From a virus (taxonomy: Duplodnaviria > Heunggongvirae > Uroviricota > Caudoviricetes): a stretch of 38,380 nt of DNA. The notes under the pieces were generated by a model. The model was given only the letters and a program-made list of their open reading frames with translations, ran no database searches and had not been told where the DNA came from. Shown here in pieces: positions 2,733 to 34,899 of the stretch (positions within the stretch are counted from its first letter, which is position 1; each line of letters begins with the position of its first letter). The position numbers were made by a program, and so were the translations under genes. The stretch is from IMG/VR virus record IMGVR_UViG_2713897056_000005. One strand, 5' to 3'.

Positions 2733-2775
2733 CCCATCAACCCCGCCATTTCGGTTCAAGGTTGATGGGTTTTTG
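2733..2775. terminator. Structured hairpin followed by T-run downstream of ybjL
   Basis: cccatcaacc (2733..2742) pairs with ggttgatggg (2760..2769), followed by ttttt; the 17 nt loop is unusually large. Confidence 0.4.
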
Positions 2776-14287: not shown

Positions 14288-14889
14288 GGATTCACTCTCA
14301 TTGTGTCAATAACATGGACCGCCCCGCCTTCATGCGCGGTGCCGCCGGAAATAATTGTTTCGTTGATATACGGATAGATCGTGATTTCTTCGCCAAGATA
14401 ACTGGCGGCTCCCACCCAATGCGAACCGCTGGTCTGCAGATTGATGGACATGCCGATCATGTGACGGCTACATGGTTTGGCATCGCTTATCAGTCGCTCA
14501 AGTTCCAGATAGGTATCTTCAGTGATGCCCTGGTCCTGCACACCAATGTCCAGACGAAACGTGCCCGGTGTTTCTCCGGTCTGCCACCACTCAATAATGC
14601 GGATCAGGAAGCCGAACGGCTCCACCACCCGCCGTACGGCACTGGTGGTTCCTTTGTGCTGATGAATATAAAAAGCATCCTTCACTACCTGGCGTTTGAC
14701 GCTTTCTGTCCAGCCCTCGTCCCAGCGATCCACAGAGAACGCCCAGGCGAGATAAGGCAGGAAACTGACCGGACAGGTTGCCGGATTCCACAAGTCACGC
14801 AGTGACACCTGCAGATCAGAAATCCCGCTACAGGTTTGCGCCAGTCGGCGCTCCAGTGGCGTTGAACCCGGTGGCAGCAGACTATTCAT
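14284..14889 (-). CDS. I: Baseplate assembly protein I
   Basis: 201 aa; between J and H; stop abuts the H start. Confidence 0.8.
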   Translation of the reverse strand: MNSLLPPGSTPLERRLAQTCSGISDLQVSLRDLWNPATCPVSFLPYLAWAFSVDRWDEGWTESVKRQVVKDAFYIHQHKGTTSAVRRVVEPFGFLIRIIEWWQTGETPGTFRLDIGVQDQGITEDTYLELERLISDAKPCSRHMIGMSINLQTSGSHWVGAASYLGEEITIYPYINETIISGGTAHEGGAVHVIDTMRVNP

Positions 14890-15790: not shown

Positions 15791-16136
15791 TCTCTGCTCC
15801 TGTTGATACGGAAAGGGAAACAGGCACACCGTTATTACGCCGCCCGGTCAGCCCCACCACCATTGAACCGTCAAAATTGCTGTTGATGGTGATGGAATCC
15901 AGCGTCAGCCGTGGCTCCCAGCGACTCAGCGCCACATACACTGCCGACATGACCTGCAGGCGTAATGCCGGATTTTGTGGCTGGTCTATCAGTGTCGACA
16001 GCAGGGAACCATATTCACGACGGGCAATGCGGCAACCCTGCGGTGTCAGCAGAATGTCCCGCACCGACTGACGCAGATGGTCAATATCAGTAATGGCTTT
16101 ACCGCTGGTATTGTTCATCCCGATATAAAGCGTCAT
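15777..16136 (-). CDS. W: Baseplate protein W
   Basis: 119 aa; gpW size and position between V and J. Confidence 0.8.
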   Translation of the reverse strand: MTLYIGMNNTSGKAITDIDHLRQSVRDILLTPQGCRIARREYGSLLSTLIDQPQNPALRLQVMSAVYVALSRWEPRLTLDSITINSNFDGSMVVGLTGRRNNGVPVSLSVSTGAENGSD

Positions 16137-16711
16137 ACCGGGCCTCCGGTTGTATCGCCGCCTTTCAGGACGCCAGTATGCTGATGCGCATCAACCACGA
16201 TCCCGTTAGAACTCATCGCTCCGCCGCCCTGGATAACGCCACCATTGATCACCACTTCGCTGTTAATGCGCGTGCGGTCAGCCTCCAGTACAAACTCACT
16301 GGTTTTCATAGTGATGTTGTCAGCGGCCTCAATGACCATTGATTTGATGCCCCTGACATACCAGCGCCCGGTGGCGGGTTCGTATTCAAACCAGCCACCG
16401 TCAGGATGTTCTGTCACGCAGGCGTCCGCCGACGTCGACGGTGGTGCGAACTGATTCGAATAGACAGCGGGCAGCGCAAAGGCGGTTTCCAGATTGCCGC
16501 CCAGACTCAGCAGCACCACCTGCTCACCTTCCGATGGTCGCCACCATGTGCGGGCATTCCCGGCACGCAGCGTCAGCCAGCTAATCCAGTTGGTTTCAAG
16601 CTCGCCCGTTTTCACCCGGCAAAGCCAGTTTTCCCTGTCCACTTCGGTGACTACCCCTGTGCGAATCAGGTTGGTGATAAGGCGCATGATTTCGGTTAAT
16701 TGTGCGTTCAT
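16133..16711 (-). CDS. V: Baseplate spike/assembly protein V
   Basis: 192 aa; P2 gpV position. Confidence 0.8.
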   Translation of the reverse strand: MNAQLTEIMRLITNLIRTGVVTEVDRENWLCRVKTGELETNWISWLTLRAGNARTWWRPSEGEQVVLLSLGGNLETAFALPAVYSNQFAPPSTSADACVTEHPDGGWFEYEPATGRWYVRGIKSMVIEAADNITMKTSEFVLEADRTRINSEVVINGGVIQGGGAMSSNGIVVDAHQHTGVLKGGDTTGGPV

Positions 16712-16757
16712 AGGGAAAGGTTGCCATCAGGGGAAGAAAGGCGGCAGTGCTGCAACT

Positions 16758-16775
16758 TGTATCAGTGCTGATACA
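16758..16775. promoter_or_regulatory. Candidate Ogr-dependent late promoter site (TGT-N12-ACA) upstream of V
   Basis: tgtatcagtgctgataca, a near-perfect dyad, in the S-V intergenic gap; spacing to the annotated V start is short, so V start or site role is uncertain. Confidence 0.4.
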
Positions 16776-16779
16776 AAGA

Positions 16780-17226
16780 TCATCCCGCCAGCCATTGCAG
16801 AATCATGTCGCGGGTCATTGCCTCAACATCATCATTTACACCCAGCAGGCGGCGCTCTGCATAGCGGACCTCCGGTCCTTTGCGACTGACGCGATCGCGC
16901 AGGCCGTAATGGTGAACACGGGCAATACGCTGCACCTTACCTTCAAACTGTACGCTGGCAGAATCAGAGCTGGCGGCAGTTCTCAGGTATTTTGTGGTGC
17001 GCAGCTTTGTAAACATCTGACGTTTGATACGGCCTTTTTTACTGCGTGCTGTTACTCGCCTCGGTTCATAGCGGCTGCCATCAGGATTGCGTTGCATCCT
17101 GATGTTCTGCCGCTGTGTCCGGCGCAGTTCCTGTGCCAGCTGGCGCATCATTCGGCTTCTTGCGGCTGGCTCCAGATTCGCCAGCAAGGCACTCAGCCAG
17201 TCGTCAACTTTCTGCAGTTCAGCCAC
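16780..17226 (-). CDS. S: Tail completion protein S
   Basis: 148 aa; order R-S-V as in P2. Confidence 0.8.
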   Translation of the reverse strand: MAELQKVDDWLSALLANLEPAARSRMMRQLAQELRRTQRQNIRMQRNPDGSRYEPRRVTARSKKGRIKRQMFTKLRTTKYLRTAASSDSASVQFEGKVQRIARVHHYGLRDRVSRKGPEVRYAERRLLGVNDDVEAMTRDMILQWLAG

Positions 17227-17671
17227 GTTTCACCGTCCACATTTCTTCAGGTTCATCAGGTTCCGCTACCGCTTCAACACTCGACACACTGCCGTCAGTG
17301 CTGACCAGCACACGCTCCGTCAGTTGCAGGTTCAGGCTGATATCACAGACATCATTGCGCAGAATATCCACCTCAAAGGTGAATAGCTTTTCCCGTAACG
17401 CCGGGTTCTTGATGGCATCGGGCTGGTTATCCCGCAGCCACAGCAAAACCGGGGCCATCAGCAGATTCTGGTCGCCGCTGAAATCCTCAATCACCGCGTT
17501 CAGGGTGTAACGGTACTCCCACGACATGGAGCTGGCCCCCGTGGCAACCAGCGAACCGTTATCCACAAACAGATGCAGTTTGTCCGGGTTATTGCGGACA
17601 TAAGGCACCGCTTTATTGAGGGCGTGGCGCAGGGATTGTGGTTTGTTCACTGTTTCGCTCCTGACACGCAA
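17219..17671 (-). CDS. R: Tail completion protein R
   Basis: 150 aa; follows lysis cassette. Confidence 0.8.
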   Translation of the reverse strand: MRVRSETVNKPQSLRHALNKAVPYVRNNPDKLHLFVDNGSLVATGASSMSWEYRYTLNAVIEDFSGDQNLLMAPVLLWLRDNQPDAIKNPALREKLFTFEVDILRNDVCDISLNLQLTERVLVSTDGSVSSVEAVAEPDEPEEMWTVKRG

Positions 17672-17903
17672 TAATCATGTCCACTTTGTCTGCACAGACC
17701 GCCCAGGCGGCCTCCGTTTCATCCAGCAATGCGTTCAGATCACCGTTAGTGCGCGGCGCTGTCTGATCCAGCCGACACGGCGTCACTCGCGGACAACCAC
17801 TGACGGTAAGCTGCACCTCCGGTGAGTGCCGGACGTTCCCGCAGCCGGATAATGTCAGCAGGCAAAGGAGTATCAGCCCAGTGGCGTAAATCCTCGTTCT
17901 CAC
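17613..17903 (-). CDS. lysC: LysC, Rz1-like outer-membrane spanin lipoprotein (embedded, alternate frame)
   Basis: Signal peptide with lipobox LSGC; ORF begins inside lysB in another frame and runs into R, as in P2 lysC. Confidence 0.6.
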   Translation of the reverse strand: MRTRIYATGLILLCLLTLSGCGNVRHSPEVQLTVSGCPRVTPCRLDQTAPRTNGDLNALLDETEAAWAVCADKVDMIIACQERNSEQTTIPAPRPQ

Positions 17904-18174
17904 GTTTCAGTTCCTCGATCCGGCGTTGTCGTTGTCTCAGCTGTGCGCTGGTCTGTTCTGCTTCGGCATAGAGCCGCGCCTGCTCCCGGTTATTGGTTTC
18001 AGTCAGAATGGACAGGCTGATAAGCTGGCTGTTGCTCTTTGCCAGTGCCTGGCTTTTGCTCTGCAGCTCGTTTGCCTGCGTGCTGATGGTCTGGCTGGCA
18101 TCAGCCAGCCGCCACGTCTGCCAGCCCAGCGCCGCCAGTAATAACGCCAGCACAACCAGCAGCAACCGGTTCAT
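17746..18174 (-). CDS. lysB: LysB, Rz-like inner-membrane spanin
   Basis: 142 aa; N-terminal TM helix then coiled-coil. Confidence 0.7.
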   Translation of the reverse strand: MNRLLLVVLALLLAALGWQTWRLADASQTISTQANELQSKSQALAKSNSQLISLSILTETNNREQARLYAEAEQTSAQLRQRQRRIEELKRENEDLRHWADTPLPADIIRLRERPALTGGAAYRQWLSASDAVSAGSDSAAH

Positions 18175-18548
18175 GCTGCTACCTGTTGCGCCATCTGATT
18201 ACGGGTGATCCAGAAGGCAATAACGGTCAGTAGATAAAAGACCAGGGTAATAGCCCACCCCGTCCATGCGAGACTTACAACAATCAGCAATCGCATCACC
18301 CAACTGATAAATACGTTTTCTTTTCGGGTAATTGTCTTCAGCAAAGATGCCCTTAACTCCTGCCAGAGCGGGCCATTCTGAATTAACGCAGCCAGTGCTA
18401 CCGGAATTACCGCCCATGTCAGCAAACAGGCTACCCAAACGCCGGACGCTGCCAGTACCGGAAAGATCCCCTGCGGATACACCATTGCTGCGATTAACAG
18501 CGCCATCCATAACATCAGAAACAGTCCGCTGATTAATTTCTTTTTCAT
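18171..18548 (-). CDS. lysA: LysA membrane protein (lysis timing)
   Basis: Multi-TM small protein after endolysin; start set at MKKKLISGLF. Confidence 0.6.
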   Translation of the reverse strand: MKKKLISGLFLMLWMALLIAAMVYPQGIFPVLAASGVWVACLLTWAVIPVALAALIQNGPLWQELRASLLKTITRKENVFISWVMRLLIVVSLAWTGWAITLVFYLLTVIAFWITRNQMAQQVAA

Positions 18549-18549
18549 T

Positions 18550-19062
18550 TCAGTTTGCTCCCTGTAAACACCAGGCCATCTCCCGCGCACGGCGGTTATC
18601 CAGCCCCTGATTAAACACACCTTTTACATAAACCCAGCGCGGCAACTGTCGGCACGCATCCGCCCAGCGCCGCTGATTGAGCAATTTCACCAGCGTGGAA
18701 CTACAGGCATTGCCCGTCCCCACGTTGAAGGCAAACGACACCGTAGCGTCATACACCTTCTGTGGTGGCTGTTGCTTCACACACCTTTCCAGTGCCCGCT
18801 CCACACGCAGCACGTTGGAGATCAGCCCTTCTGCTGCCTGTCGTTCCGTGATTGTTTTGCCGGGAATGACGCCCGATGTATTACCAATGCCGTCGGTCCA
18901 GACACCCGCGCTGCACTGATACGGCTGCAGACGACAGCCCTCGTAATCGGCAATCAGTTTCAGCCCCTCCACGGAGGTGTGAAGCTGCTGAAAACCCGGC
19001 AGCGTGGCAGCAATAGCCAGCACGGCCCCGACAAGGCAGCGTTTAACGATTGATGGATTCAT
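18550..19062 (-). CDS. K: Endolysin (lysozyme family), gpK
   Basis: 170 aa; N-terminal signal/anchor-like segment; gpK position after holin. Confidence 0.8.
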   Translation of the reverse strand: MNPSIVKRCLVGAVLAIAATLPGFQQLHTSVEGLKLIADYEGCRLQPYQCSAGVWTDGIGNTSGVIPGKTITERQAAEGLISNVLRVERALERCVKQQPPQKVYDATVSFAFNVGTGNACSSTLVKLLNQRRWADACRQLPRWVYVKGVFNQGLDNRRAREMAWCLQGAN

Positions 19063-19258
19063 AGTCCTCCCGCGAGATCTGCCCGTCGCGCAGAAGCTGG
19101 TAGGCTTTGTGTTTGTAGTACCAGTTGATAGCCAGCATCAGCACACCGATCATCAGGCCGCCCAGCGTTGAGGCATCCTTGATGGACAAATCGCCCAGCC
19201 AGGCCAGCACGACGGCGATGCAATACGTGATAAAGGCGCTGATTCGCTCAAGCGTCAT
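19043..19258 (-). CDS. Y: Holin (gpY-like)
   Basis: 71 aa, two hydrophobic helices and charged C-terminus, immediately upstream of endolysin. Confidence 0.65.
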   Translation of the reverse strand: MTLERISAFITYCIAVVLAWLGDLSIKDASTLGGLMIGVLMLAINWYYKHKAYQLLRDGQISREDYESINR

Positions 19259-19261
19259 AAT

Positions 19262-19465
19262 TCAGTCCCATAGCTGGACGGTCTGCACGGTGGTGGTGGT
19301 CGGAATGTCCGGCAGCTCCACCTGCAGCCCTTGAGGTAAAAAGGGGCCGTATTCGGCAAGCCCCGGATTTGCCTTCAGTACCTGCTCCGTGACACCCTGC
19401 GTGCGCCCGTAATGACGCCAGCAAAGCGCGTCCACCGTGTCATACTGATGCGCACGCACTTTCAT
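19262..19465 (-). CDS. X: Tail protein X
   Basis: 67 aa; P2 gpX size and position. Confidence 0.75.
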   Translation of the reverse strand: MKVRAHQYDTVDALCWRHYGRTQGVTEQVLKANPGLAEYGPFLPQGLQVELPDIPTTTTVQTVQLWD

Positions 19466-19929
19466 CAGATAAGCTCCACAGTGCAGTGCGGCGCATCCTG
19501 TACCCGGCTGATGGCCCAGCGGGCGTCACGCCATAAATCACCGCTGGCTTCCGCCAGTTCCTCGCCCCGCTTCACACCGGATGCCGTGGCGTCATAGTCC
19601 TGGTAACGTTCGTTGAGCATGGCGCGTGCCCAGCAGTAAACCGCGTTGAAATAGTGCTGAATGCGCTCACTTTTCCCATCCAGCTGTTCTGCCGGAACCT
19701 CTGCCAGCGAGGCATATCCCAGCATCTGCTGGCGTCTGCGAAACTCATACAGCTCTGCGTTGACCTCCGAAATTGCCGACAGGGCAACCTGTTTTAAACG
19801 CGGCTGCGTTACCGTGCCGTCAGTGCGCATCACACTGCGAAACTCCGACAGGTCCACATCAGGCCAGAACGGCGTATTTCTGATGATTTCCGCCTGTTCC
19901 GGTGCCTGTTCTGGCGCAACAAACATCAT
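19465..19929 (-). CDS. L: Capsid completion protein L
   Basis: Start set at MMFVAPEQ; resembles P2 gpL including the WRDxRWA motif near the C-terminus. Confidence 0.8.
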   Translation of the reverse strand: MMFVAPEQAPEQAEIIRNTPFWPDVDLSEFRSVMRTDGTVTQPRLKQVALSAISEVNAELYEFRRRQQMLGYASLAEVPAEQLDGKSERIQHYFNAVYCWARAMLNERYQDYDATASGVKRGEELAEASGDLWRDARWAISRVQDAPHCTVELI

Positions 19930-20024
19930 GCGGCTTTCTCCTGAAATAGAGGGCGGTGGACGGGGTTTTGATGTGGCAGTGCCTTTCGCCACCCCGTGCC
20001 GCCCGTGCGCGGGGGCACGTTCTG

Positions 20025-20675
20025 TCAGCGGCTGTCATTGCGCAGTCTGCGCTCCAGCTGCTGTTTGTCTTTTTTCACGCCACAGCGGGGATCGAGCTGT
20101 AACGCATGGTTGAGATGATTAAGGGCGGAAGCCGGGTTGCTTTCACTCAGGACAGCGCCAATCGCTTTATGCAGACGCGCCCGTGACTGGTCCGGCATAT
20201 CCAGACCGTCTGTCAGCTCCAGCGTCTGCAGCAACAGATCGGCATCAAAGCCGGTGGCGGCAAGCATTGCGCTCTGCGCCGCGTCTGCCATTTCCTCTGC
20301 CAGCACGGTCTGCACATTGCGATTACCCAGCGGCATCACCCAGCCATGACGCAGGGCATGACGCCCGATCTCCAGCGCCCCGGCATAATCTCCGGCATCA
20401 ATGCGCCACAGCATCACGTACATCAGCACGTCATCCTGTTGAGCGCCTCCGGCAGCCAGGACACCCTCTGCCCAGGCGACGTATTTCGGCAGCAGCTCCA
20501 CCTTGATTTCCGCTTTTTTGACCGTGGACTGAACGCCCTTGAGACGGCGGCGGTCTTCCGCCAGTTGCAGCAGCATCAGGTCATAGCCCGACGCGTGGCG
20601 AACACTGCCGCCCTCACGGGCGGCCTGTTCAGCCTGAACGCGCAGGCGATGCTGCCGTGCGGGACTCAGGCTCAT
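20025..20675 (-). CDS. M: Terminase endonuclease (small) subunit M
   Basis: 216 aa; order O-N-M-L. Confidence 0.8.
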   Translation of the reverse strand: MSLSPARQHRLRVQAEQAAREGGSVRHASGYDLMLLQLAEDRRRLKGVQSTVKKAEIKVELLPKYVAWAEGVLAAGGAQQDDVLMYVMLWRIDAGDYAGALEIGRHALRHGWVMPLGNRNVQTVLAEEMADAAQSAMLAATGFDADLLLQTLELTDGLDMPDQSRARLHKAIGAVLSESNPASALNHLNHALQLDPRCGVKKDKQQLERRLRNDSR

Positions 20676-20678: not shown

Positions 20679-21737
20679 TTACGCTCCGGCTTCTGCTGCA
20701 GCGGCGCTGAAATCGCCAATCTGGATGTTTTCCACCAGTGCGGCGCAGCGGTAGTCCTCAACCACATAGGCTTCGTTAACGGATTCAAAGTTTTCAATCC
20801 GGTCACGTTTCGGGTTGTCGATAACTGAACGGCGGCGGGTGTCTTCCTGCCAGTAGATGGACAGGTTATCCAGGCGGGTGATCAGCAGCGCATTCGGCGG
20901 GAAGAACGGCGCACGCACGGCCTGCAGGCCCCCCATGCGTTTCTGACTGATGATCATATCGGCAGCCAGTTTTTCACTGTTTTCCTGCTCTTTGTTGACC
21001 AGCGGGAAATACTTGTCAGACAACAGTTCACGACCGCAAATCACCACCAGATCGTCATCGTCCTGGTAAACCACGTCGATAAGCTCATTGACCGCATCCA
21101 TCACCACAGCGTCCAGGTTGGCATATTCGCCACCTTTCCCGACTTTCACCGCACCCGGTGTGGTTTCACCGCCCGTGGTGGTACTGCCCATGACGTGATC
21201 CGGTGCATCCTCACGGATTTTCTGCAGCCAGCCTTTGTTCACATCCTGCAGCAGCGGGTTTTCGCTACGGTTGGAGGTTTTCGCACGCTTCACGCCGTTA
21301 AAGCCGATCATGATGCGGTCCAGTGCCTGACGTTTCACGATGGCGTTACGGATACGCACCTGGAAATCCTGAAACTTCGCCCACAGGTCCAGCTTCGCGT
21401 AGGTCAGCACCGTGTCAAAGTTGGTCTGCTCGCATTTATATTCCACATCGACCATCAGCGTCGGATCGACAGGCTCACGCTCTTTTGCGGTGGTATCAGT
21501 GGTTCCGGCAATGGTGCTGCCAACCCCCAGCCCCAGCAACTGCCCAGACTGCTCAGTCACTGGCGTGACGTTAATCAGCGTCAGGAAAGCGGCGGACTGC
21601 TGGATCTGGTCTTCCAGCGTCTGCTGTACAGACGGCTCCACGGTGAACTTGCTGGACAGTTCTTCAACTGCCACACCGTTCAGACGCGCCAGCTGCTGCA
21701 GGTAAGCGTTAAAAGCAAAGCGGGTATTCTTCTTCAT
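20679..21737 (-). CDS. N: Major capsid protein N
   Basis: 352 aa; P2 gpN size and position. Confidence 0.9.
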   Translation of the reverse strand: MKKNTRFAFNAYLQQLARLNGVAVEELSSKFTVEPSVQQTLEDQIQQSAAFLTLINVTPVTEQSGQLLGLGVGSTIAGTTDTTAKEREPVDPTLMVDVEYKCEQTNFDTVLTYAKLDLWAKFQDFQVRIRNAIVKRQALDRIMIGFNGVKRAKTSNRSENPLLQDVNKGWLQKIREDAPDHVMGSTTTGGETTPGAVKVGKGGEYANLDAVVMDAVNELIDVVYQDDDDLVVICGRELLSDKYFPLVNKEQENSEKLAADMIISQKRMGGLQAVRAPFFPPNALLITRLDNLSIYWQEDTRRRSVIDNPKRDRIENFESVNEAYVVEDYRCAALVENIQIGDFSAAAAEAGA

Positions 21738-21753
21738 CAGGTTTTGTGCTCCA

Positions 21754-22587
21754 TCAGCAATTGGTCAGAGTGTCAGCGGGGGCGTTACCGCCTGTTGCAC
21801 GCTGGCGGTAGTCCTGGCGGCTGTCTTCATGGCTCAGCTTATTCACCAGTTCGTTAAAGGCGGTTTGCTGCTCCTGCAGAGCAGTCTCCAGCTCAGACAG
21901 GCGTTCTTCCTGCTCAGACAGGGATTTTTCGGTGCGTGCGCTCAGGTTCTGCTGCTCAGTGGCGACCAGCTCCACGGCTTTATGCACATCAGAGAACCGG
22001 GCATCGTCTGACTGCTCTTTTTTGGTGAACAGCGCCGTGACGCGGGCAAACAGGGACGGTTTGTCATCCTGGATTTCTTCCAGTTCGATCACCGTTTCCT
22101 CTGCAGCGGTAAAGAGATTGGCGGGATTCTGCTTGCGGTTTGCCAGCGGGTTATGGGCTGCACTGGCGCTGAATGTCAGCATTTCCGTACCCAGACTGGC
22201 AGGGTCATCAGTGGCAGCCAGGCCGACCAGGTAGGCTTTGCCCGTATCAGCGAACTTCGGGCTGACTTCCATAGAGGTGAATAATTTCTGGCCTTTTTTC
22301 ACCAGTTCCACCAGGGACTCCGTTGGCTCAACATCGGCATACAGCGCCATCTTGCCTGCCAGCGGACCTTCCGTGATTTCTTCAGCAAACAGCGCCGTCA
22401 CCTTGCCGTAGCGGTTAAAGGTGCTGTCCGGCAGATAAGACTTGATGTGCTCAAGGTTAATCAGCGCGGTATACACCGCCGGGTTGTAGCTGGCTGCCAT
22501 CTGTTCCAGCCATTCACGCTGGATTTCGCGTCCGTCGGTGGTGGCACCTTCCACCCCGATGCGAAAACGCTTTGCTTTCACTGTCAT
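21754..22587 (-). CDS. O: Capsid scaffold protein O
   Basis: 277 aa; coiled-coil rich C-terminus; divergent from P. Confidence 0.85.
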   Translation of the reverse strand: MTVKAKRFRIGVEGATTDGREIQREWLEQMAASYNPAVYTALINLEHIKSYLPDSTFNRYGKVTALFAEEITEGPLAGKMALYADVEPTESLVELVKKGQKLFTSMEVSPKFADTGKAYLVGLAATDDPASLGTEMLTFSASAAHNPLANRKQNPANLFTAAEETVIELEEIQDDKPSLFARVTALFTKKEQSDDARFSDVHKAVELVATEQQNLSARTEKSLSEQEERLSELETALQEQQTAFNELVNKLSHEDSRQDYRQRATGGNAPADTLTNC

Positions 22588-22665
22588 GAGCCGTGCTCCG
22601 TTAGAAAAAACTTACTGGAGCCTTATGGTTGCGGTGATGGGGGCAGTGAAACAATGCGCGGTATT

Positions 22666-22683
22666 TGTACCGACAACCACACA
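22666..22683. promoter_or_regulatory. Candidate Ogr-dependent late promoter site (TGT-N12-ACA) in the divergent O/P control region
   Basis: tgtaccgacaaccacaca; 55 nt from the P start and 87 nt from the O start; assignment to PO or PP is ambiguous. Confidence 0.45.
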
Positions 22684-22729
22684 AACCGCAGGCGGGGAAA
22701 GCCTTCATTCAAGGCTGTAGGTTTGTGCC

Positions 22730-24499
22730 ATGAACACCACACTGACACCCGCAGATCTCGATCCCCGTCGGCAGGCCATGCTGCTGTACTTTCAGGGATA
22801 CCGCGTAGCCCGCATTGCTGAAATGCTGGGCGAGAAAGTTGCAACCGTTCACAGCTGGAAAAAAAACGCGACAAGTGGGGTGACTATGGGCCGCTGGATC
22901 AGATGCAGCTCACCACCGCCGCACGCTACTGCCAGCTCATTATGAAGGAGCACAAAGAAGGGAAAGATTTCAAAGAGATTGACCTGCTGGCGCGCCAGTC
23001 GGAGCGCCATGCGCGGATCGGCAAGTTTAACAATGGCGGCAACGAAGCCGACTTAAACCCTAACGTCGCCAACCGCAACAAAGGCCCGCGCCGTCAGCCG
23101 GAAAAGAACGTTTTCACCGATGAACAGATTGAGAAGCTGGAAGAAATCTTCCATTCCTCCATGTTCAACTACCAGCGCCACTGGTGGGAAGCCGGAAAAA
23201 CCAACCGCATCCGCAACCTGCTGAAGTCACGCCAGATCGGCGCGACCTTTTACTTTGCCCGTGAAGCCCTGATTGACGCCCTGCTTACCGGACGTAACCA
23301 GATTTTCCTTTCTGCCAGTAAGGCACAGGCTCACGTCTTTAAGCAGTACATCATAGACTTCGCCAAAGAAGTCGAGGTGGAGCTGAAAGGCGATCCGATG
23401 GTGCTTCCTAACGGAGCCACGCTTTACTTCCTCGGCACCAATGCCCGCACGGCCCAGAGTTATCACGGCAACCTGTATCTGGATGAATATTTCTGGATAC
23501 CGAAATTCCAGGAGCTGCGCAAAGTGGCTTCCGGTATGGCTATTCACAAAAAATGGCGACAAACCTATTTTTCCACGCCATCCAGCCTGACACACAGTGC
23601 TTATCCGTTCTGGTCCGGTGCGCTATTCAACCGTGGGCGCAACAAAGCCGATAAGGTGGACATCGACCTGTCCCACAGCAATCTGGCCCCCGGCCTGCTG
23701 TGCGCAGACGGGCAATACCGCCAGATAGTCACCGTGGAAGATGCGGTGCGCGGCGGCTGTAACCTGTTCGACCTTGACCAGTTGCGCATGGAGTACAGCC
23801 CGGACGAATACCAGAACCTGCTGATGTGCGAGTTTGTGGACGATCTCGCGTCCGTGTTTCCGCTCAGCGAGCTGCAGGCGTGCATGGTGGACAGCTGGGA
23901 AGTCTGGACCGACTTTCATGCACTGGCGCTGCGCCCGTTTGGCTGGCGCGAGGTGTGGATCGGTTATGACCCGGCAAAAGGTACGCAGAACGGCGATAGT
24001 GCCGGATGCGTGGTGGTGGCTCCGCCAGCCGTGCCGGGTGGTAAGTTCCGCATTCTTGAGCGTCACCAGTGGCGCGGGATGGACTTCCGCGCCCAGGCTG
24101 ACGCCATCAAAAAACTGACCGAACAGTATAACGTGACCTATATCGGCATCGACTCGACCGGCGTCGGTCACGGGGTTTACGAGAACGTGAAAGCGTTTTT
24201 TCCTGCCGTCAGGGAGTTTGTCTACAACCCCAACGTTAAAAAACGCCCTGGTACTCAAGGCCTACGACATTATCAGCCACCGCCGTCTGGAGTTTGACGC
24301 CGGGCACACCGACATTGCGCAGTCATTTATGGCAATCCGTCGCGCTACCACTGCCAGTGGCAACCGCCCGACCTATGAAGCCAGCCGCAGCGAAGAAGCC
24401 AGCCATGCCGATCTGGCCTGGGCAACAATGCACGCACTGTTTAACGAACCGCTGCAGGGCGAATACGCCAATACCAGCAATATTGTGGAGATTTTTTGA
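22730..24499 (+). pseudogene. P: Terminase ATPase (large) subunit P, reading frame broken twice at homopolymer A runs
   Basis: Three consecutive ORFs in different frames (22730..22945, 22903..24297, 24218..24499) together give a continuous terminase-like protein; breaks at A8 (22859..22866) and A6 (24238..24243). Confidence 0.75.
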
Positions 24500-25533
24500 T
24501 GGGAAAGAGTAAGAAGAACCGAGCTGCGGCGACGAAACAGATCCAGCTTAAAAGTCAAACTACAGCCGAAGCATTCAGCTTCGGCGATCCCGTTCCTGTT
24601 CTGGACCGCCGTGAACTGCTGGACTATGTGGAATGCGTACAGATGGACCGTTGGTATGAGCCGCCCGTCAGCTTTGACGGACTGGCGCGCACCTTCCGCG
24701 CCGCCGTGCATCACAGTTCCCCGATTGCAGTAAAGTGCAACATTCTGACCAGTACCTATATCCCTCATCCGCTGCTCAGCCAGCAGGCTTTTTCGCGTTT
24801 TGTGCAGGACTATCTGGTATTTGGTAACGCCTACCTGGAGAAACGCACGAACCGATTCGGTGAAGTTATCGCTCTTGAGCCTGCGCTTGCAAAATACACC
24901 CGACGCGGATTAGACCTGGATACCTACTGGTTTGTGCAATACGGTATGACAACCCTGCCGTATCAGTTCACGAAAGGCAGCATTTTTCATCTGATGGAAC
25001 CGGACATCAACCAGGAGATCTACGGCCTGCCCGGTTATCTTTCTGCCATTCCGTCAGCCCTGCTCAACGAGTCCGCCACGCTGTTCCGCCGCAAGTATTA
25101 CATTAACGGTAGCCATGCAGGCTTCATCATGTATATGACCGATGCCGCGCAGAACCAGGAAGATGTGAACAACCTCCGCAACGCAATGAAAAGCGCCAAA
25201 GGCCCTGGCAACTTCCGCAATCTGTTTATGTACTCGCCTAACGGCAAAAAGGACGGACTTCAGATTATCCCGTTGTCAGAGGTCGCAGCGAAAGATGAGT
25301 TTTTGAATATCAAGAACGTGAGTCGGGATGACATGATGGCAGCACATCGTGTGCCGCCGCAAATGATGGGGATTATGCCGAGTAATGTTGGGGGGTTTGG
25401 GGATGTGGAGAAAGCCAGCCGCGTCTTTGTTCGCAACGAGTTGATACCTCTGCAGAAGCGCCTTCAGGAATTGAACGACTGGCTTGGAGAAGAAGTCATG
25501 CGTTTTGAAGATTATAATTTAGGTATTGAATGA
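24496..25533 (+). CDS. Q: Portal protein Q
   Basis: 345 aa; directly after P; P2 gpQ size. Confidence 0.9.
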   Translation: MMGKSKKNRAAATKQIQLKSQTTAEAFSFGDPVPVLDRRELLDYVECVQMDRWYEPPVSFDGLARTFRAAVHHSSPIAVKCNILTSTYIPHPLLSQQAFSRFVQDYLVFGNAYLEKRTNRFGEVIALEPALAKYTRRGLDLDTYWFVQYGMTTLPYQFTKGSIFHLMEPDINQEIYGLPGYLSAIPSALLNESATLFRRKYYINGSHAGFIMYMTDAAQNQEDVNNLRNAMKSAKGPGNFRNLFMYSPNGKKDGLQIIPLSEVAAKDEFLNIKNVSRDDMMAAHRVPPQMMGIMPSNVGGFGDVEKASRVFVRNELIPLQKRLQELNDWLGEEVMRFEDYNLGIE

Positions 25534-25540
25534 TATTTAA

Positions 25541-25570
25541 AAGCCTGTACAAACAGGCTTTTATTCTTTA
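25541..25570. terminator. Hairpin plus T-rich tract between convergent Q and cargo operon (likely bidirectional terminator)
   Basis: agcctgt-acaa-acaggct followed by a T-rich tract (ttttattcttt). Confidence 0.5.
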
Positions 25571-25602
25571 GTTTAAAATCACCAAGACATGAGCATTAAA
25601 AC

Positions 25603-26268
25603 TTAAAGATCCGGATCTACAGGCTCATGATATAGATTTACAGGGTAATGAATAACTTCATAATTCAGTTGAGTAACTGTGTGAACATGCTGGCTATAAA
25701 AAACCAATGGATTTTTTTGACAAGGAGTAATCGTTATAGATTTACAGGCATGAATTCTTGGTGCGAATTTATCTAAATGCGCCTTCCAGTTGCTCATCAT
25801 TTCATTACATTTTCTATTACGAGTATAGATAATCAATCCACCACTTGCGCTGTCTACGGTCCCTGTACTATATCGTTCAGTGAGTTGAGCATACCCTTTA
25901 AATAAATAACTATATGAAGATGTATGTTTTTTGGCTTCGCCATGCCAAATATAATCCTTTAGTTTTATTGTAATATCACAATGTCCGCGCTGATTATTTT
26001 CATGAAATGCTTCAATGCCCATATCTTTATTTTTGATATTGGCCAATAAAATTAAAGTAAGCTGATCTTCTGTTAAATCGAAGTTTAACTTATTTGAATT
26101 CTCTTCTATTTCCTTTACAGCAGAATCAAGTTCAATCCTGACAAATTGTTTGAAATTATCGTACGATTGAAGTGCAAATCTAACACGAGTAATAGAAGCA
26201 TTAATACGCTGAAGAAAAATATCATTATCAATATCAGCCAAACTCATTGCTGCAGACATTTTTAACAT
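25603..26268 (-). CDS. Hypothetical protein, gene 3 of AT-rich cargo operon; possible PD-(D/E)xK-like nuclease motif
   Basis: 221 aa; start ATG overlaps the stop of the upstream gene (TGATG); segment GHCDITIKLKDYIWHGEAKK fits a D...ExK pattern (weak). Confidence 0.5.
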   Translation of the reverse strand: MLKMSAAMSLADIDNDIFLQRINASITRVRFALQSYDNFKQFVRIELDSAVKEIEENSNKLNFDLTEDQLTLILLANIKNKDMGIEAFHENNQRGHCDITIKLKDYIWHGEAKKHTSSYSYLFKGYAQLTERYSTGTVDSASGGLIIYTRNRKCNEMMSNWKAHLDKFAPRIHACKSITITPCQKNPLVFYSQHVHTVTQLNYEVIHYPVNLYHEPVDPDL

Positions 26269-26702
26269 CAGATAATATCCTTTGATTTAGATTCATCTAA
26301 TGTAAAAAAAGGAAATACGAATGACTTATAGTCATACATAAGCTCCCCTGTAAATGGGTTTACTAAAGATTGACTGATTTCCGCCTCAATAACTTCCTCT
26401 ATTTCAAGTTCTACAGGGTCATGAAAATCATCAATGAACCAATAATTGAGTTTTAAAAAATCAACCTTTGGGCTACAAAGAATTTGTATGGCCGGATAGA
26501 TAACCTGCTCATACGTTTCTGGCTGTAAAACCTTATTATAACCACCAGCTATATTAAATAAATCCTTATAACTTAAAGCTATATTTGATGATTTTTTAGC
26601 CCTTGCCTCGATTTCATCGTACAAATAGCAAGCTAACGCCCCAATTTCAGGGCGTTCTGCACACATTTCTTTGATGATCTTGGGCATATCACCATCCTTC
26701 AT
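26268..26702 (-). CDS. Hypothetical acidic protein, gene 2 of cargo operon
   Basis: About 144 aa from the ATG at 26702 with GGAG Shine-Dalgarno; Asp/Glu-rich. Confidence 0.5.
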   Translation of the reverse strand: MKDGDMPKIIKEMCAERPEIGALACYLYDEIEARAKKSSNIALSYKDLFNIAGGYNKVLQPETYEQVIYPAIQILCSPKVDFLKLNYWFIDDFHDPVELEIEEVIEAEISQSLVNPFTGELMYDYKSFVFPFFTLDESKSKDII

Positions 26703-26714
26703 TGCTGACTCCAA

Positions 26715-27821
26715 TTATAATATCAGCTTTGTGAGGGTTTCGAAATCATCTTTGGATATACATTTACTTAATATAGCATAGTTAACAGGAGAGCAACTAC
26801 TCCCTCCTAGATGCCTGCGGAGTGTTCCCGGAATGATAAGCTCTACGTTATCCGCTAATTGCAGTTTTGGATTATTTCTATCAACTCTAATTCCAATACG
26901 ATACAAACCAATACTGCCTACTGCTTTGATGCCTTCCTTATTAAACAAATCATCACGTAAGTCTTTAGTGGCCACATTTTTCTTTTCTTTATGCGTAGTC
27001 CCCTCATTCGTCAAAAATGACAAATCAAAGACTTTATAGCTTAATTTTGAATAAGGCAATGAATTTTGTTTGAAAATTGGCTCAATTAACGGATAAAAAT
27101 CTTTTTCCGATGATTTAAATTCATAACCGACATGATTATACAATTCACGAATAATGTTACTCTTTGCAAAAGTAACATTATCACCAATAATATTACCATT
27201 AGTATCTACCAAAACATGAATTTTATTAGTAACAGAGTCTAATATACAGACATCAAAACATTGTCGCTTTTCTTTTCGCTTTGCAATAATTTCATCAAAC
27301 TGCTTGTATTGCGCAAGTGCTGACGGGGGAATTTTTTCTCTTACAACTAATTCTCTGACAGATGAAAAAACAAGTATTGACTGGGTGTTTTGAATAGAAT
27401 AATTAACAAGTTCAGGTTGATTTTTTACAGCATTTTGCAATTGGACATCATCAAGGATCGAATCAACCAATAATGATGGTTGATTCATCAAATTCCATTG
27501 AAAACTAAATCTGTCATTTAGTGTTTTAATTACACTATTATCTACAGTCAAACTAAATATTGCTTTTTCACCATAAACGACCTGACCAAAAATTAGGTCA
27601 TTTACGTTTGCCATAATGCCATCAAACTTTTGCCTATCTTTACTTTTAAGATCAATGAGGCTTTCTAGTATTTTTTCGTTTGTTGCTTCACGCCCCCTAC
27701 CTGTTGGCAGCCCTAAAGACGCAATAATTGGCCTTGCAACGTTCCATGTGAAACGTTCAGTTAAGGTCAAGATCGACTTTAACTCAGACTCAGAAAGCAC
27801 TACTGGGACACTACCTGTCAT
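26715..27821 (-). CDS. Hypothetical protein, gene 1 of cargo operon
   Basis: About 368 aa from the ATG at 27821 with AGGTG Shine-Dalgarno (a GTG at 27830 is an alternative start); no recognisable ATPase or other motif. Confidence 0.5.
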   Translation of the reverse strand: MTGSVPVVLSESELKSILTLTERFTWNVARPIIASLGLPTGRGREATNEKILESLIDLKSKDRQKFDGIMANVNDLIFGQVVYGEKAIFSLTVDNSVIKTLNDRFSFQWNLMNQPSLLVDSILDDVQLQNAVKNQPELVNYSIQNTQSILVFSSVRELVVREKIPPSALAQYKQFDEIIAKRKEKRQCFDVCILDSVTNKIHVLVDTNGNIIGDNVTFAKSNIIRELYNHVGYEFKSSEKDFYPLIEPIFKQNSLPYSKLSYKVFDLSFLTNEGTTHKEKKNVATKDLRDDLFNKEGIKAVGSIGLYRIGIRVDRNNPKLQLADNVELIIPGTLRRHLGGSSCSPVNYAILSKCISKDDFETLTKLIL

Positions 27822-27980
27822 AACTTGCACCTAGTCATCCAAAAAGCAATAAGAATTTGCTCTTGTCTTAATTTATCCTTCGATACCTAACAAATTACCT
27901 CAATGTTGAAAAAATTTGCAAGCCATTTGCTTCTAAAAAGCGACCTTACTCAGAGTGTTACAAAACTAAGCGAGCGCGCG

Positions 27981-27999
27981 CTCGTATCCCCGCCACGCC
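27981..27999. other. cos-like cohesive-end site
   Basis: Reverse complement GGCGTGGCGGGGATACGAG; the first 13 nt match the P2/186 cohesive-end sequence as I recall it; sits in a 720 bp non-coding stretch. Confidence 0.5.
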
Positions 28000-28020
28000 T
28001 GCCCGCTTTATGCAGTGATT

Positions 28021-28123
28021 TTCATGCACCTGCATGACATAAGCGAAAGCCCGCCAGTTCTGGGGGGCCTCAGCAAAAACGATCCTCAAACGATCATGCA
28101 ATTTCATGCAGCATAGTCATGCA
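28021..28123. repeat. Cluster of short CATGCA repeats adjacent to cos (possible terminase binding sites)
   Basis: CATGCA at 28023, 28095, 28105 and 28118 plus an inverted TGCATG at 28031. Confidence 0.35.
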
Positions 28124-28552
28124 CAGCCAAGAGAAGTGAAAATCCGTATCTGAATGACCACTTAAAAAACGAAATATACGGGTTTACAAACATGGAGGTT
28201 CACTGTGAGCGAAGAGCGGAAGTTGCCTTAATTAGGTTACATGGGGGACAAATGTTACTAGCATGATTATGCGGGATACTTACAATACCACGCCTTAATT
28301 GCTTTGTTATCCCACCAGAAAGTCATGGAGCCGCAACTGATAAGAAAATTGTTGTAAAAGTGCCAGTTGGTTACTCTGAATTTCTGCTTAGCCAGGAGAG
28401 TGCCTGCGTTGTCAGCGAATGCGTAAGTTGATCCTTCAATGCAGAAATAGTTCAATTTATTAAACAACACTCCTGGCGGGATTAACGCCGCATCTATAAT
28501 GCGTGAGAGTGTGCATGCGCAATTTCAGCAAAAAAAATTGAAAATAGCGCTA

Positions 28553-29525
28553 CTAACTTCCCTTTATTTTTAGTTCGTTAAAAATATCTTCGATTACCAA
28601 TCCATTTTTAATTAAATGCTGCACAATATTTTCATATTCTTTGAAATTGTCAATATGCAAGCCATGATCTTTTTCTTTAGCAATTCTCGTGATCACATGT
28701 ACGCTATCTGTATAATCAATCTTATTTTTAAGAGCATTGAGCAAACTTATACTTGGATTTAAAGTTGAGATTAGTTTACCAAACTCGGTTTGTAACTCTT
28801 TGGATTGATGAGTATTAATATAATCTTCAATAAAAGCATCAAAATCTCCTTGCAACTCAACTTTAAGGTTTGCTATATCCTTCATAATATTTTCTAACTC
28901 AGAAGAGTATGGCCGACCATGTTTAAAATCGAATAAAAAAAGATTTGCTTTCTCAATACATTCGCAAATATAAAAAACTGTATAAAGGGAATATTTTTGC
29001 TTAACTTTTAATTTTCCATAGGCGTAGTGAACCAAAAGATGCTTAGCATTAATAACATTTTTATTTTTTGAAAGTTGATTGTTAGTTGCAGGCGGATAAA
29101 TTACCACATCAACATTATCTAAATTTTGAAAAGTTTTTAAAATAAGAGCCTCAACCTTATTCCAATCGAGGCCCCCATTACCACAGCCTAAAGGTGGTAT
29201 TGATATTGATGTAATTTTTTTTTTCATCTATAATTTTTGCTAAAGATTCAAGGCCTTGCGAGATAAAATCATATGTTGATTTTTTTCTCCAACTATCTTT
29301 AGTGGGAAAGTTTACAATTATTTTTCCCTTTTCCTCTACAATTAAAACCTGTCCAATTTTCATTGTACCAGTGGCGCATGCTCTCTTATAAACTTCGAAA
29401 TTATAGGGAAAAGTTTCTTTAAAAGCCAAAGCAATACCCTTTCCCATGACTCCTTGGCAGTTTACAGCATTCACAAGAGCTTGCGATGTAGAGTTTAGAA
29501 GATTTCCGCTTGCATACTTAATCAT
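28553..29525 (-). pseudogene. darG: DarG-like macrodomain antitoxin, split into two ORFs at an A10 tract
   Basis: 29178..29525 encodes the macrodomain N-terminus (ALVNAVNCQGVMGKGIALAF) and 28553..29227 continues it (SIPPLGCGNGGL) plus a C-terminal domain; frames switch inside the A10 run at 29215..29224. Confidence 0.65.
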
Positions 29526-29529
29526 AGAA

Positions 29530-30111
29530 TTAGAACATATAAGTGTTGATCGTTATCAATATACTTAATCCTTGTTGTTTTATCAACCCTTCAACATATT
29601 TTTTTTCGTTATCATTTTTGACAAAGATGCAATGGAAATTTTTCGGCTCGACCGTTACACTTGATAAACACTCAGCCATACATACAGATTTGCATTCTGC
29701 ATTTTTATAATCCCTTATATTCATTAGCTCCCAGTCAATTTGGGCCATTCCTTGTTCATAATCTAAGAGGTCTATAACAGAACTGGTGGATAATGGATGT
29801 TTAGGGATAACTTTCCAACCATTTTCTTTGGCAAATGCCCGACAAACCGAAATAATACAAAATGATTTTTCCTTATGATCTTTCAGGACTCTTCCATCAA
29901 ATGGATTCTTAGTAAAGAAATGAAAAGGAACCATTGTTTGCAAATTTAATGCTTCGCGACCTGTTATTATTTCACCGTCGGCCACATCAACAAACTCACC
30001 TTTTACTGATGCACGAGATCTTAATCCTGTATCTAAAATACTAGGTAGATTATCCATACATGTTAAATGATAGAGAAGATACTGATCTTCAATTCTTTTC
30101 CTTTCGCTCAT
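29530..30111 (-). CDS. darT: DarT-like DNA ADP-ribosyltransferase toxin (DUF4433 family)
   Basis: N-terminal LLYHLTCMDNLPSILDTGLRSR matches the DarT signature as I recall it; 193 aa; 4 nt upstream of the macrodomain gene; GGATGA Shine-Dalgarno. Confidence 0.65.
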   Translation of the reverse strand: MSERKRIEDQYLLYHLTCMDNLPSILDTGLRSRASVKGEFVDVADGEIITGREALNLQTMVPFHFFTKNPFDGRVLKDHKEKSFCIISVCRAFAKENGWKVIPKHPLSTSSVIDLLDYEQGMAQIDWELMNIRDYKNAECKSVCMAECLSSVTVEPKNFHCIFVKNDNEKKYVEGLIKQQGLSILITINTYMF

Positions 30112-30578
30112 TTCAACTCATCCTTTCAAATTCGTAAGTCTATTTATAGAACCAAACCTCACTGGCAGTCAAGGTTTTTAAGATTATTCACATTGCCTTC
30201 TGCCTGTCGATCTAATTATTTTCGATTTTTTGGGTATGATTTGGCATTATTGATATACAAGGTAAAACAATTTTTCAGTAGTTTACTGACGCTGAGTGAT
30301 TACGATAGCTAGCTTGGGAAGGAAATGGCCATAGTGCATGTGCTGAACAAAATGAAAAAGGCAGGGACATTCTGGTCTTCCCCATGAGTATGGATTTTCA
30401 TTGCATCGATGGGTATGAGCAACGTCCCCTTGATTAAGGATAGCGTTGCATCGACCCGTTGAACTCACAACACAAATCGTACAATCACTTATCAAAATGG
30501 CCGCCCACCTTACGCCTCGTTTCACTCGCTACCCAAACTAGCCCCCATCAGAATGAATCCTCCTGGGGGCAATGTTTC

Positions 30579-30812
30579 TTAATGCAGCCAGCTGTCGTCC
30601 TCCCACACCTTCTGCATAATTTTCATCACTTGTTTTCTTTCTTCATCCAGTTGCAGTCCGGTTAGTTCCACACCGTTAGAGCTACCTTTGCGAATGCGAA
30701 TTACCGTTTTGGGATACAGGGGGCGCAGATTGCGGTAAAGCTCGGATTCAAGGGCGTCCAGGGTAGACTGGCTAATCTTCTGCTCTTTATCGATCATTAT
30801 TTCAATGCGCAT
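30579..30812 (-). CDS. DinI-family protein (possible C-terminal domain of a Tum-like antirepressor)
   Basis: MRIEIMIDKEQKIS...VWEDDSWL resembles DinI; the longer ORF to 30884 and upstream frames may be part of the same gene. Confidence 0.65.
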   Translation of the reverse strand: MRIEIMIDKEQKISQSTLDALESELYRNLRPLYPKTVIRIRKGSSNGVELTGLQLDEERKQVMKIMQKVWEDDSWLH

Positions 30813-31054
30813 AAAAGTCACCTCAGCTGATGACATCCATTGAGCGGTTGTATTCGTGGCTTCTGATTTTTGCCATGAGTTCATCTGTCAGTTCAGAAAC
30901 CCACTGCAGAGCCAGCCCTTTCTCTTCATCACTACACTCACTAGCCGCTACAAGCTTAAGAAAAAAAATCAATGCGCTGGAGCTTCAAAGACTCCAAAAA
31001 ATAGTCCTGCATCTTTCCTCCTATGACACCAAAGCAATACTGTATACATAACCA

Positions 31055-31070
31055 CTGTTTATATTTACAG
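31055..31070. promoter_or_regulatory. LexA (SOS) box
   Basis: CTGTTTATATTTACAG, a perfect CTGT-N8-ACAG; lies upstream of a GGAGGA-ATG (31012) and the DinI-like gene on the minus strand. Confidence 0.6.
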
Positions 31071-31167
31071 TATATAATAATCTTACTGATGTAAAACGTT
31101 TTTTTTTTACGTTCATCAGCCTGATATGCCTAGTATTATTAAGAGCACGAATTGTTAACCCGCGTAA

Positions 31168-34660: not shown

Positions 34661-34899
34661 TAGTGGATCTCCTGCGCTTCGTTCTGGATTGCTTCAGCAG
34701 TCACACGAAGCAGTTCTGCCGCTTCGACGTGGGTTAGCTGGCGGGATGTGATATGACACGCCAGGCTATCAAGGCGAGCTGCCATTGCTTCAGCCCTTGC
34801 CCGGCGTTCTTCCAGACGAGCCTCTGTCAGTAAAATATTAAGCCCTGCGTCATCCGGTCCGGTTTTGGTCGAGAGGGTTTCAATATTACGCATAATCAA
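34660..34899 (-). CDS. Hypothetical early-operon protein
   Basis: 79 aa ORF tightly packed in the early operon. Confidence 0.4.
   Translation of the reverse strand: MIMRNIETLSTKTGPDDAGLNILLTEARLEERRARAEAMAARLDSLACHITSRQLTHVEAAELLRVTAEAIQNEAQEIH

What the first reader, a model, noticed from the sequence alone, without database searches (positions are those of the whole stretch)
22730..24499. Terminase large subunit gene P broken by two homopolymer indels
The P coding sequence is spread over three frames with switches at an A8 run (22859..22866; continuity needs A6 or A9) and an A6 run (24238..24243; continuity needs A5). If real, the prophage cannot package DNA and is defective, which would be consistent with domestication of a prophage retained for its cargo. 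Because both breaks, and the darG break, are in A runs, systematic homopolymer error is an equally likely explanation.
Basis: seen in the sequence. Interest (0 to 1): 0.5.

Follow-up and report, generated by a model that had tools for sequence, protein, structure and literature searches.

The report
Terminase frameshifts are sequencing artefacts
The two breaks in this prophage's DNA-packaging (terminase) gene are almost certainly base-counting errors made by an Ion Torrent sequencer in runs of A, not real mutations, so there is no evidence that the prophage is defective.

Summary
A8 at 22859-22866 and A6 at 24238-24243 split a P2-type terminase large-subunit gene into three pieces. The biological reading (defective, domesticated prophage) is not supported.

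- **Source.** The window comes from contig JNNL01000042.1 of a draft STEC O91:H21 assembly made only from Ion PGM reads (36x, MIRA).
- **Closest relative.** An independent assembly (L012) is identical over 22.4 kb, with no substitutions even in the chromosomal flank. It differs only at six A/T homopolymers, all longer in the window.
- **Seventh indel.** T5 against T6 at 2769 is also private to this assembly.
- **Length dependence.** The fraction of runs that differ rises with run length: 0/219 at 4 nt and 3/10 at 7 nt.
- **Other records.** No A8 or site-2 A6 allele occurs among more than 1000 complete E. coli genomes carrying this gene. All 120 IMG/VR contigs read have six bases (Lys-Lys) at site 1.
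- **In-silico repair.** Deleting the three extra A's recreates exactly a 588 aa terminase found on 31 other contigs. The truncated product is a database singleton.

Verdict: homopolymer over-calls, about 95% confidence. The darG break has the same origin. Interest is low.

The parts
22730..24499 (+). Terminase large (ATPase/nuclease) subunit gene of a P2-like prophage. It is 1770 nt as deposited and 1767 nt (588 aa) after the three surplus A's are removed.
   Evidence: Pfam gives PF06056, PF03237 and PF17289. The in-silico repair equals P0001 exactly.
22859..22866 (+). Site 1: an A8 run. Relatives have A6, or AAG variants, encoding Lys-Lys. This is an apparent +2 insertion.
   Evidence: Searches show A6 in S40, L011, L012 and L014. 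In one search, none of 1071 E. coli records matches better than 64/66. In one search, all 120 IMG/VR contigs have 6 nt.
24238..24243 (+). Site 2: an A6 run. Relatives have A5. This is an apparent +1 insertion.
   Evidence: Searches show A5 in the relatives. In one search, none of 1167 E. coli records matches better than 70/71. In one search, 93 IMG/VR contigs have A5 and one (L040) has A6.
22730..22945 (+). Fragment 1: 71 aa, of which the first 45 are genuine terminase sequence. It was deposited as hypothetical protein KFV21530.1.
   Evidence: One search finds it on one contig only. One search shows it is a singleton cluster.
22903..24297 (+). Fragment 2: 464 aa, carrying the ATPase domain and the first 94 profile positions of the nuclease domain.
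24218..24499 (+). Fragment 3: 93 aa, the C-terminal part of the nuclease domain.
28530..28537 (.). Same class of private length difference: A8 against A7 in relatives. It is intergenic, just downstream of darG.
29215..29224 (-). Same class: T10 against T9 in relatives. It splits the macro-domain (darG-like) gene.
   Evidence: Relatives have a 323 aa ORF.
30961..30968 (-). Same class: A8 against A7 in relatives. It breaks a 62 aa hypothetical gene.
31099..31108 (.). Same class: T10 against T7 in relatives (+3). It is intergenic.
2765..2769 (.). Same class: T5 against T6 in all eight relatives (-1). It is intergenic, near the left prophage edge.

Best explanation
The gene is an ordinary, intact P2-type terminase large-subunit gene. 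The two frameshifts are consensus errors in the deposited draft assembly. Ion PGM flow-based chemistry estimates the length of a homopolymer from signal amplitude. In this assembly it over-called A6 as A8 and A5 as A6, and MIRA carried those calls into the consensus at 36x coverage. The same process produced five more A/T-run length errors in the window, including the darG break.

In the living strain the prophage most likely encodes the same 588 aa terminase as its relatives. Nothing here indicates a packaging defect.

**Shown:** the sequencing platform, the pattern of differences, the uniqueness of the alleles, and the exact match after repair.

**Inferred:** that the reads, rather than the DNA, carry the extra bases. 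No reads were available.
For: 1. **Source and platform.** The truncated 71 aa product locates the window to GCA_000749545.1, contig JNNL01000042.1. L002 is identical to window 12730-32945. JNNL00000000 is isolate P, sequenced only on an Ion PGM at 36x and assembled with MIRA 4.0.5 (PMC4192381). Abundant false homopolymer indels in PGM data, worse in longer runs, are documented on E. coli DH10B (PMC3446914).
2. **Closest relative.** L012 (GCA_023788245.1) equals the source contig over 22,415 nt, including 5.2 kb of chromosome, with no substitutions. It differs only by six indels (9 nt), all in A/T runs and all longer in the window.
3. **Other backgrounds.** L011, L013, L014 and L016 lie in different chromosomal backgrounds, with 25-45 flank SNPs. 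They have no substitutions inside the prophage and the same shorter runs.
4. **Seventh indel.** T5 at 2769 is T6 in S40 and in L004-L010.
5. **Length dependence against S40.** The fraction of A/T runs that differ is 0/219 at 4 nt, 1/86 at 5, 2/42 at 6, 3/10 at 7 and 1/1 at 9. For G/C runs it is 0/119. The indels track where the long runs lie.
6. **Uniqueness.** No E. coli complete genome has A8 or the site-2 A6. IMG/VR holds no exact match to either allele, and the GTDB representatives hold none to A8. All 120 IMG/VR contigs read have 6 nt at site 1, with synonymous AAA/AAG variation that keeps Lys-Lys.
7. **Repair.** Removing the three A's gives exactly P0001, a protein on 31 contigs within a cluster of 17,027 members. 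The truncated product is a singleton.
Against: - No reads or independent resequencing of this isolate could be examined, so the call is circumstantial.
- The 7.9 kb of chromosomal flank available from the same contig shows no homopolymer indels. About 2.2 would be expected at the prophage's per-run rates (Poisson P about 0.11). I therefore could not show the error process acting on core genes.
- One unrelated IMG/VR contig (L040) also reads A6 at site 2. That run can evidently change or be miscalled repeatedly, and this does not distinguish the two readings.
- A/T runs are also genuine slippage hot spots.
Confidence: 0.95

Rival explanations
1. The frameshifts are real slippage mutations in this isolate. 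The terminase is inactivated, and the prophage is a defective element kept for its DarT/DarG-type cargo.
For: - A/T runs are natural slippage hot spots.
- A truly degraded relative exists: L013 has lost window 20869-24917 and 7330-20126, including P, yet keeps the cargo and replication modules.
- L040 shows an independent A6 at site 2.
- No homopolymer indel was seen in 7.9 kb of chromosomal flank.
Against: - There are seven private indels against no private substitutions over 22.4 kb relative to L012. From established knowledge of E. coli mutation-accumulation studies, substitutions outnumber indels even in mismatch-repair mutants, and slippage in 6-7 nt runs is overwhelmingly +/-1. Here there is a +2 and a +3.
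- Three of the seven indels are intergenic, and one hits the antitoxin-like darG gene, whose real loss next to an intact darT would be expected to be harmful.
- The platform is Ion PGM only.
- The alleles are seen in no other record.
Confidence: 0.04
2. The runs are real and are decoded by recoding. Transcriptional or ribosomal slippage on A8 (a -1 shift) and on A6 (a +1 shift) would produce some full-length terminase, as a form of expression control or phase variation.
For: Runs of 8 or more A are known to provoke RNA-polymerase slippage in E. coli (established knowledge). The net insertion is +3, so the first and last pieces share a frame.
Against: - No relative uses such an arrangement. Site 1 is always six bases and is often AAGAAG, which is not slippery.
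- Two opposite-direction shifts 1.37 kb apart would be needed.
- An A6 run is too short for efficient slippage.
- The same assembly has equivalent length changes in non-coding runs.
Confidence: 0.01

Closest known systems
GpP, the terminase large (ATPase) subunit of P2-like phages (Peduoviridae)
   Same: It has the same three-domain layout (PF06056, PF03237, PF17289). It sits in the same position, divergent from the O-N-M capsid genes and followed by the portal gene Q. After repair it aligns over its full length to the terminases of Peduovirus and fiAA91-ss.
   Different: It belongs to a sister group of P2-like prophages found in E. coli and Klebsiella: 99.8% identical to vB_EcoM-813R9 and 99.2% to ST512-KPC3phi13.2.
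E. coli S40 prophage (NZ_CP010235.1, 3254324-3289995) and the same prophage in GCA_023788245.1
   Same: The prophage, its cargo and its insertion site between ybjL and rcdA are essentially the same. Identity is 99.95% or 100% outside homopolymers.
   Different: Those records have a single 588 aa terminase ORF, an intact 323 aa macro-domain gene and shorter A/T runs. S40 also has the invertible tail-fibre segment in the other orientation.
Homopolymer-length errors of flow-based sequencing (Ion Torrent PGM, 454)
   Same: The errors are confined to homopolymers, their frequency rises with run length, the length changes vary in size, and substitutions are absent. This matches the PGM error behaviour described in PMC3446914.
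   Different: Nothing differs in kind. Only A/T runs are affected here, which fits the absence of G/C runs longer than 6 in the window.

Membership tests
P2-type terminase large subunit (GpP) | N-terminal gpP-like domain (PF06056) | tested here: met
   The repaired protein scores 94.6 bits over residues 11-68. Fragment 1 covers profile positions 1-35.
P2-type terminase large subunit (GpP) | Terminase ATPase domain (PF03237) followed by an RNaseH-like nuclease domain (PF17289) | tested here: met
   The scores are 220 bits (residues 162-382) and 168 bits (residues 410-571). Fragments 2 and 3 split the nuclease domain at profile position 94.
P2-type terminase large subunit (GpP) | Gene order Q-P divergent from O-N-M, as in P2 | tested here: met
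   The genes are N at 20679-21737 (-), O at 21754-22587 (-), P at 22730-24499 (+) and Q at 24496-25533 (+). The S40 annotation agrees.
P2-type terminase large subunit (GpP) | Full-length sequence similarity to characterised P2-group terminases | tested here: met
   Identity is 62.6-63.4% over residues 3-588 to P2-group records, and 99.8% to vB_EcoM-813R9.
P2-type terminase large subunit (GpP) | ATPase, nuclease and packaging activity | not testable with these tools
   This needs biochemistry or an induction experiment.
Sequencing artefact (flow-chemistry homopolymer miscall) | The assembly derives from a platform prone to homopolymer errors, with no polishing by another technology | tested here: met
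   The assembly used Ion PGM reads only, at 36x, with MIRA (PMC4192381).
Sequencing artefact (flow-chemistry homopolymer miscall) | Differences from near-identical independent assemblies are confined to homopolymers and depend on run length, without accompanying substitutions | tested here: met
   There are 7 of 7 indels in A/T runs of at least 5 nt, no substitutions against L012 over 22.4 kb, and a rate that rises from 0/219 to 3/10 with run length.
Sequencing artefact (flow-chemistry homopolymer miscall) | The same error class is visible in conserved chromosomal genes of the same assembly | tested here: inconclusive
   Only 7.9 kb of flank was reachable. It has five A/T runs of at least 7 nt and no indels, against about 2.2 expected (P about 0.11).
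Sequencing artefact (flow-chemistry homopolymer miscall) | Read pile-ups show mixed or ambiguous run lengths at the sites | not testable with these tools
   No reads were available.
Genuine pseudogene in a defective prophage | The disrupting allele is confirmed in independent data or shared by related isolates | tested here: not met
   The A8 and A6 alleles are absent from 1071 and 1167 E. coli records. IMG/VR has neither, and the GTDB representatives lack A8. The truncated product is a singleton.

The most novel reading that the evidence does not exclude
The A8 and A6 alleles are real in this O91:H21 pork isolate. In that case a very recently acquired, otherwise sequence-identical P2-like prophage was inactivated by several homopolymer slippage events, perhaps in a transient mutator background. 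It would then be a packaging-dead carrier of DarT/DarG-type cargo.
Probability: 0.04. Interest if true: 0.3.

Novelty: not a real feature. Interest (0 to 1): 0.05.

Why it matters
The main value is as a caution. Pseudogene calls and 'defective prophage' calls from Ion PGM-only, or other unpolished, draft assemblies are unreliable at A/T runs of 5-6 nt or longer. In this window, all four apparent gene disruptions (terminase twice, the darG-like gene and a 62 aa ORF) have this signature.

For the biology, the practical conclusion runs the other way from the finding. This prophage is nucleotide-identical in at least five chromosomal backgrounds, which points to a recently mobile and probably functional phage carrying a DarT/DarG-type module.

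Tried and rejected
- **Walking along the source contig** to test core genes for the same error class. The 173 aa edge protein was too common, and the source contig was not among the places shown. The gpA look-up worked and gave 5.2 kb of flank. The reachable flank was too poor in long runs to be decisive.\n- **Look-up of the 464 aa middle fragment** found nothing on record, because the gene caller did not call it that way.\n- **NCBIfam** has no specific model for this protein, giving only a sub-threshold small-terminase hit. A gapped pattern built from the window's own flanks replaced it.\n- **Search for a complete genome closer than S40** over the structural half found none.\n- **Programmed recoding or phase variation** was considered and rejected. 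Relatives always have six bases at site 1, often the non-slippery AAGAAG, and non-coding runs show the same length changes.

Full report
**1. Observation**

An A8 run lies at 22859-22866 and an A6 run at 24238-24243. The terminase reading frame is split into 22730-22945 (71 aa), 22903-24297 (464 aa) and 24218-24499 (93 aa).

Pfam shows the three pieces are consecutive parts of one protein:
- The gpP-like N-terminal domain PF06056 is cut at profile position 35/58.
- The ATPase domain PF03237 is whole in the middle piece.
- The RNaseH-like nuclease domain PF17289 is cut at position 94/155.

Two details need correction. The pieces occupy two absolute frames, not three, because +2 and +1 sum to +3. 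The intact product is 588 aa, not 590. The surrounding order is that of P2: N(-), O(-), P(+), Q(+).

**2. Where the window comes from**

The truncated 71 aa product is on record on exactly one contig among the collection's gene positions. That contig is JNNL01000042.1 of GCA_000749545.1, and the locus is identical to the window. In the protein collection it is a singleton cluster, deposited as hypothetical protein KFV21530.1.

The genome announcement for JNNL00000000 describes STEC O91:H21 isolate P, of porcine origin. The genome was sequenced only on an Ion PGM at 36x and assembled with MIRA 4.0.5 (PMC4192381). Ion PGM data are documented to give large numbers of false indels at homopolymers, persisting in longer runs and with variable widths, including on E. 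coli DH10B (PMC3446914).

**3. Comparison with near-identical relatives**

*S40.* The prophage of E. coli S40 (NZ_CP010235.1) is 99.95% identical to window 2701-38380 and has a single 588 aa terminase gene. The differences are four substitutions and seven indels. Every indel lies in an A or T run:

| Window position | Window | S40 |
|---|---|---|
| 22859 | A8 | A6 |
| 24238 | A6 | A5 |
| 28530 | A8 | A7 |
| 29215 | T10 | T9 |
| 30961 | A8 | A7 |
| 31099 | T10 | T7 |
| 2769 | T5 | T6 |

*Relatives sharing the gpA allele.* Closer relatives came from a look-up of the window's gpA-type protein.
- L012 (GCA_023788245.1) is identical to the source contig over all 22,415 nt compared. That includes 5.2 kb of chromosome (ybjG-mdfA-ybjH-ybjI-ybjJ-rcdA) with no substitutions. 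The only differences are the six right-hand homopolymer indels.
- L011, L013, L014 and L016 come from different chromosomal backgrounds, with 25-45 SNPs in that flank. They too have no substitutions within the prophage and the same shorter runs.
- The seventh indel (T5 at 2769) is T6 in S40 and in seven further loci. L005 differs from window 1-3500 by that base alone.

Against its closest relatives, the window therefore has seven private indels and no private substitutions. Six of the seven are insertions, including a +2 and a +3.

**4. Length dependence**

Against S40, the fraction of A/T runs that differ rises with run length:

| Run length (nt) | Runs that differ |
|---|---|
| 4 | 0/219 |
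| 5 | 1/86 |
| 6 | 2/42 |
| 7 | 3/10 |
| 8 | 0/1 |
| 9 | 1/1 |

None of 119 G/C runs differs; the longest of these is 6 nt. The clustering of indels at 22.8-31.1 kb follows the distribution of long runs, which concentrate in the 36% GC cargo region.

**5. Uniqueness of the alleles**

- Among complete E. coli RefSeq genomes, 1071 records match the site-1 neighbourhood and none better than 64/66, which corresponds to A6. For site 2, 1167 records match and none better than 70/71, which corresponds to A5.
- Exact A8 and site-2 A6 patterns are absent from IMG/VR, and A8 is absent from the GTDB representative genomes.
All have exactly six bases at site 1, always two lysine codons: AAAAAA 77, AAGAAG 23, AAAAAG 11 and AAGAAA 9. 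This is the signature of a conserved reading frame with synonymous drift.
- At site 2, 93 contigs have A5. One divergent contig (L040) has A6 and a premature stop. That case cannot be resolved here. It shows only that the run is a recurrent site of change or miscall.

**6. Repair**

Deleting two A's at site 1 and one at site 2 gives a 1767 nt ORF. Its product is identical, residue for residue, to P0001. That terminase is present on 31 contigs from NCBI, Logan and ENA, within a 90% identity cluster of 17,027 members. It is 99.8% identical to the terminase of phage vB_EcoM-813R9 and about 63% identical to P2-group GpP.

**7. Interpretation**

The best explanation is that both breaks are Ion PGM homopolymer over-calls carried into the MIRA consensus. 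The darG break, the break in the 62 aa ORF and three intergenic length changes have the same origin.

The alternative is real slippage mutations. That would require seven indels, including a +2 and a +3, to accumulate with no substitutions, in a prophage otherwise identical to copies in several lineages. One of them would have to fall in an antitoxin-like gene next to an intact toxin gene. From established knowledge of E. coli mutation spectra, this is very unlikely even in a mismatch-repair mutator. Recoding is excluded by the non-slippery AAGAAG variants in relatives and by the matching changes in non-coding runs.

**8. Limits**

- I had no reads.
- I could reach only 7.9 kb of chromosomal flank on the source contig. 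It holds five A/T runs of at least 7 nt and shows no indels, where about 2.2 would be expected at the prophage's rates (P about 0.11). The error process could therefore not be demonstrated independently in core genes.

**9. Verdict**

The 'defective, domesticated prophage' reading is not supported, and the 'systematic homopolymer error' alternative is strongly supported (about 0.95). This is not a real feature, and interest is low. The nucleotide identity of this prophage across different chromosomal backgrounds suggests, if anything, a recently mobile and functional phage.

Noticed in passing
window 11399-13251 (recombinase gene at about 10777-11343, - strand): A 1.8 kb tail-fibre segment is bounded by 27 nt imperfect inverted repeats (11399-11425 and 13225-13251). 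It lies in the opposite orientation to the otherwise identical S40 prophage, next to a serine-recombinase gene. This looks like a Gin/Cin-type invertible host-range switch caught in both states.
   Followed up: partly
window 28553-30111 (darG-like 28553-29525 in two pieces; darT 29530-30111, - strand): The DarT / macro-domain (DarG-like) toxin-antitoxin cargo lies between the portal-side genes and the replication module. The apparent darG break at T10 (29215-29224) is T9 in every relative, where the gene is a single 323 aa ORF. It is the same artefact class.
   Followed up: yes
window 21166-38380 versus L011, L013, L014, L016: Apart from homopolymers, the prophage is nucleotide-identical in at least five assemblies whose adjacent chromosomal flanks differ by 25-45 SNPs in 5 kb. 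In all of them it is inserted between ybjL and rcdA. This implies recent horizontal spread of one phage genotype.
   Followed up: partly
L013 (GCA_034319445.1, JAXKXF010000001.1), junctions at locus about 18655-18659 and 19392-19396: This relative lacks window 20869-24917 (part of N, O, P and part of Q) and 7330-20126 (most tail and lysis genes), but keeps the DarT/DarG cargo and the replication and lysogeny genes.
   Followed up: partly
L040 (IMGVR_UViG_2636416165_000003), locus about 3571-3577: An independent, more divergent P2-like contig also reads A6 instead of A5 at terminase site 2, with a premature stop near residue 521. This is its only indel against its nearest relative, which differs by 44 substitutions. 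Whether it is real or an error is unknown.
   Followed up: partly
KC618326.1 (P2-like prophage of E. coli O157:H43 T22), 10016-11777: The terminase matches in two pieces and is annotated as two 'terminase, ATPase subunit' CDSs. This is another public record with a split terminase gene and may deserve the same scrutiny.
   Followed up: no
window 23227-23595 and 23601-23885 (- strand): In the collection's gene calls for the source contig, the broken terminase region is covered by two antisense ORFs (122 aa and 94 aa) with no Pfam hits, plus a 137 aa fragment. These spurious calls are a downstream consequence of the frameshifts.
   Followed up: no
window about 28285-28392 (S40 locus L001 25586-25693): The S40 annotation marks a short IS5/IS1182-family transposase remnant between the three hypothetical cargo genes and darG. 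This hints that the cargo region was assembled by insertion events.
   Followed up: no
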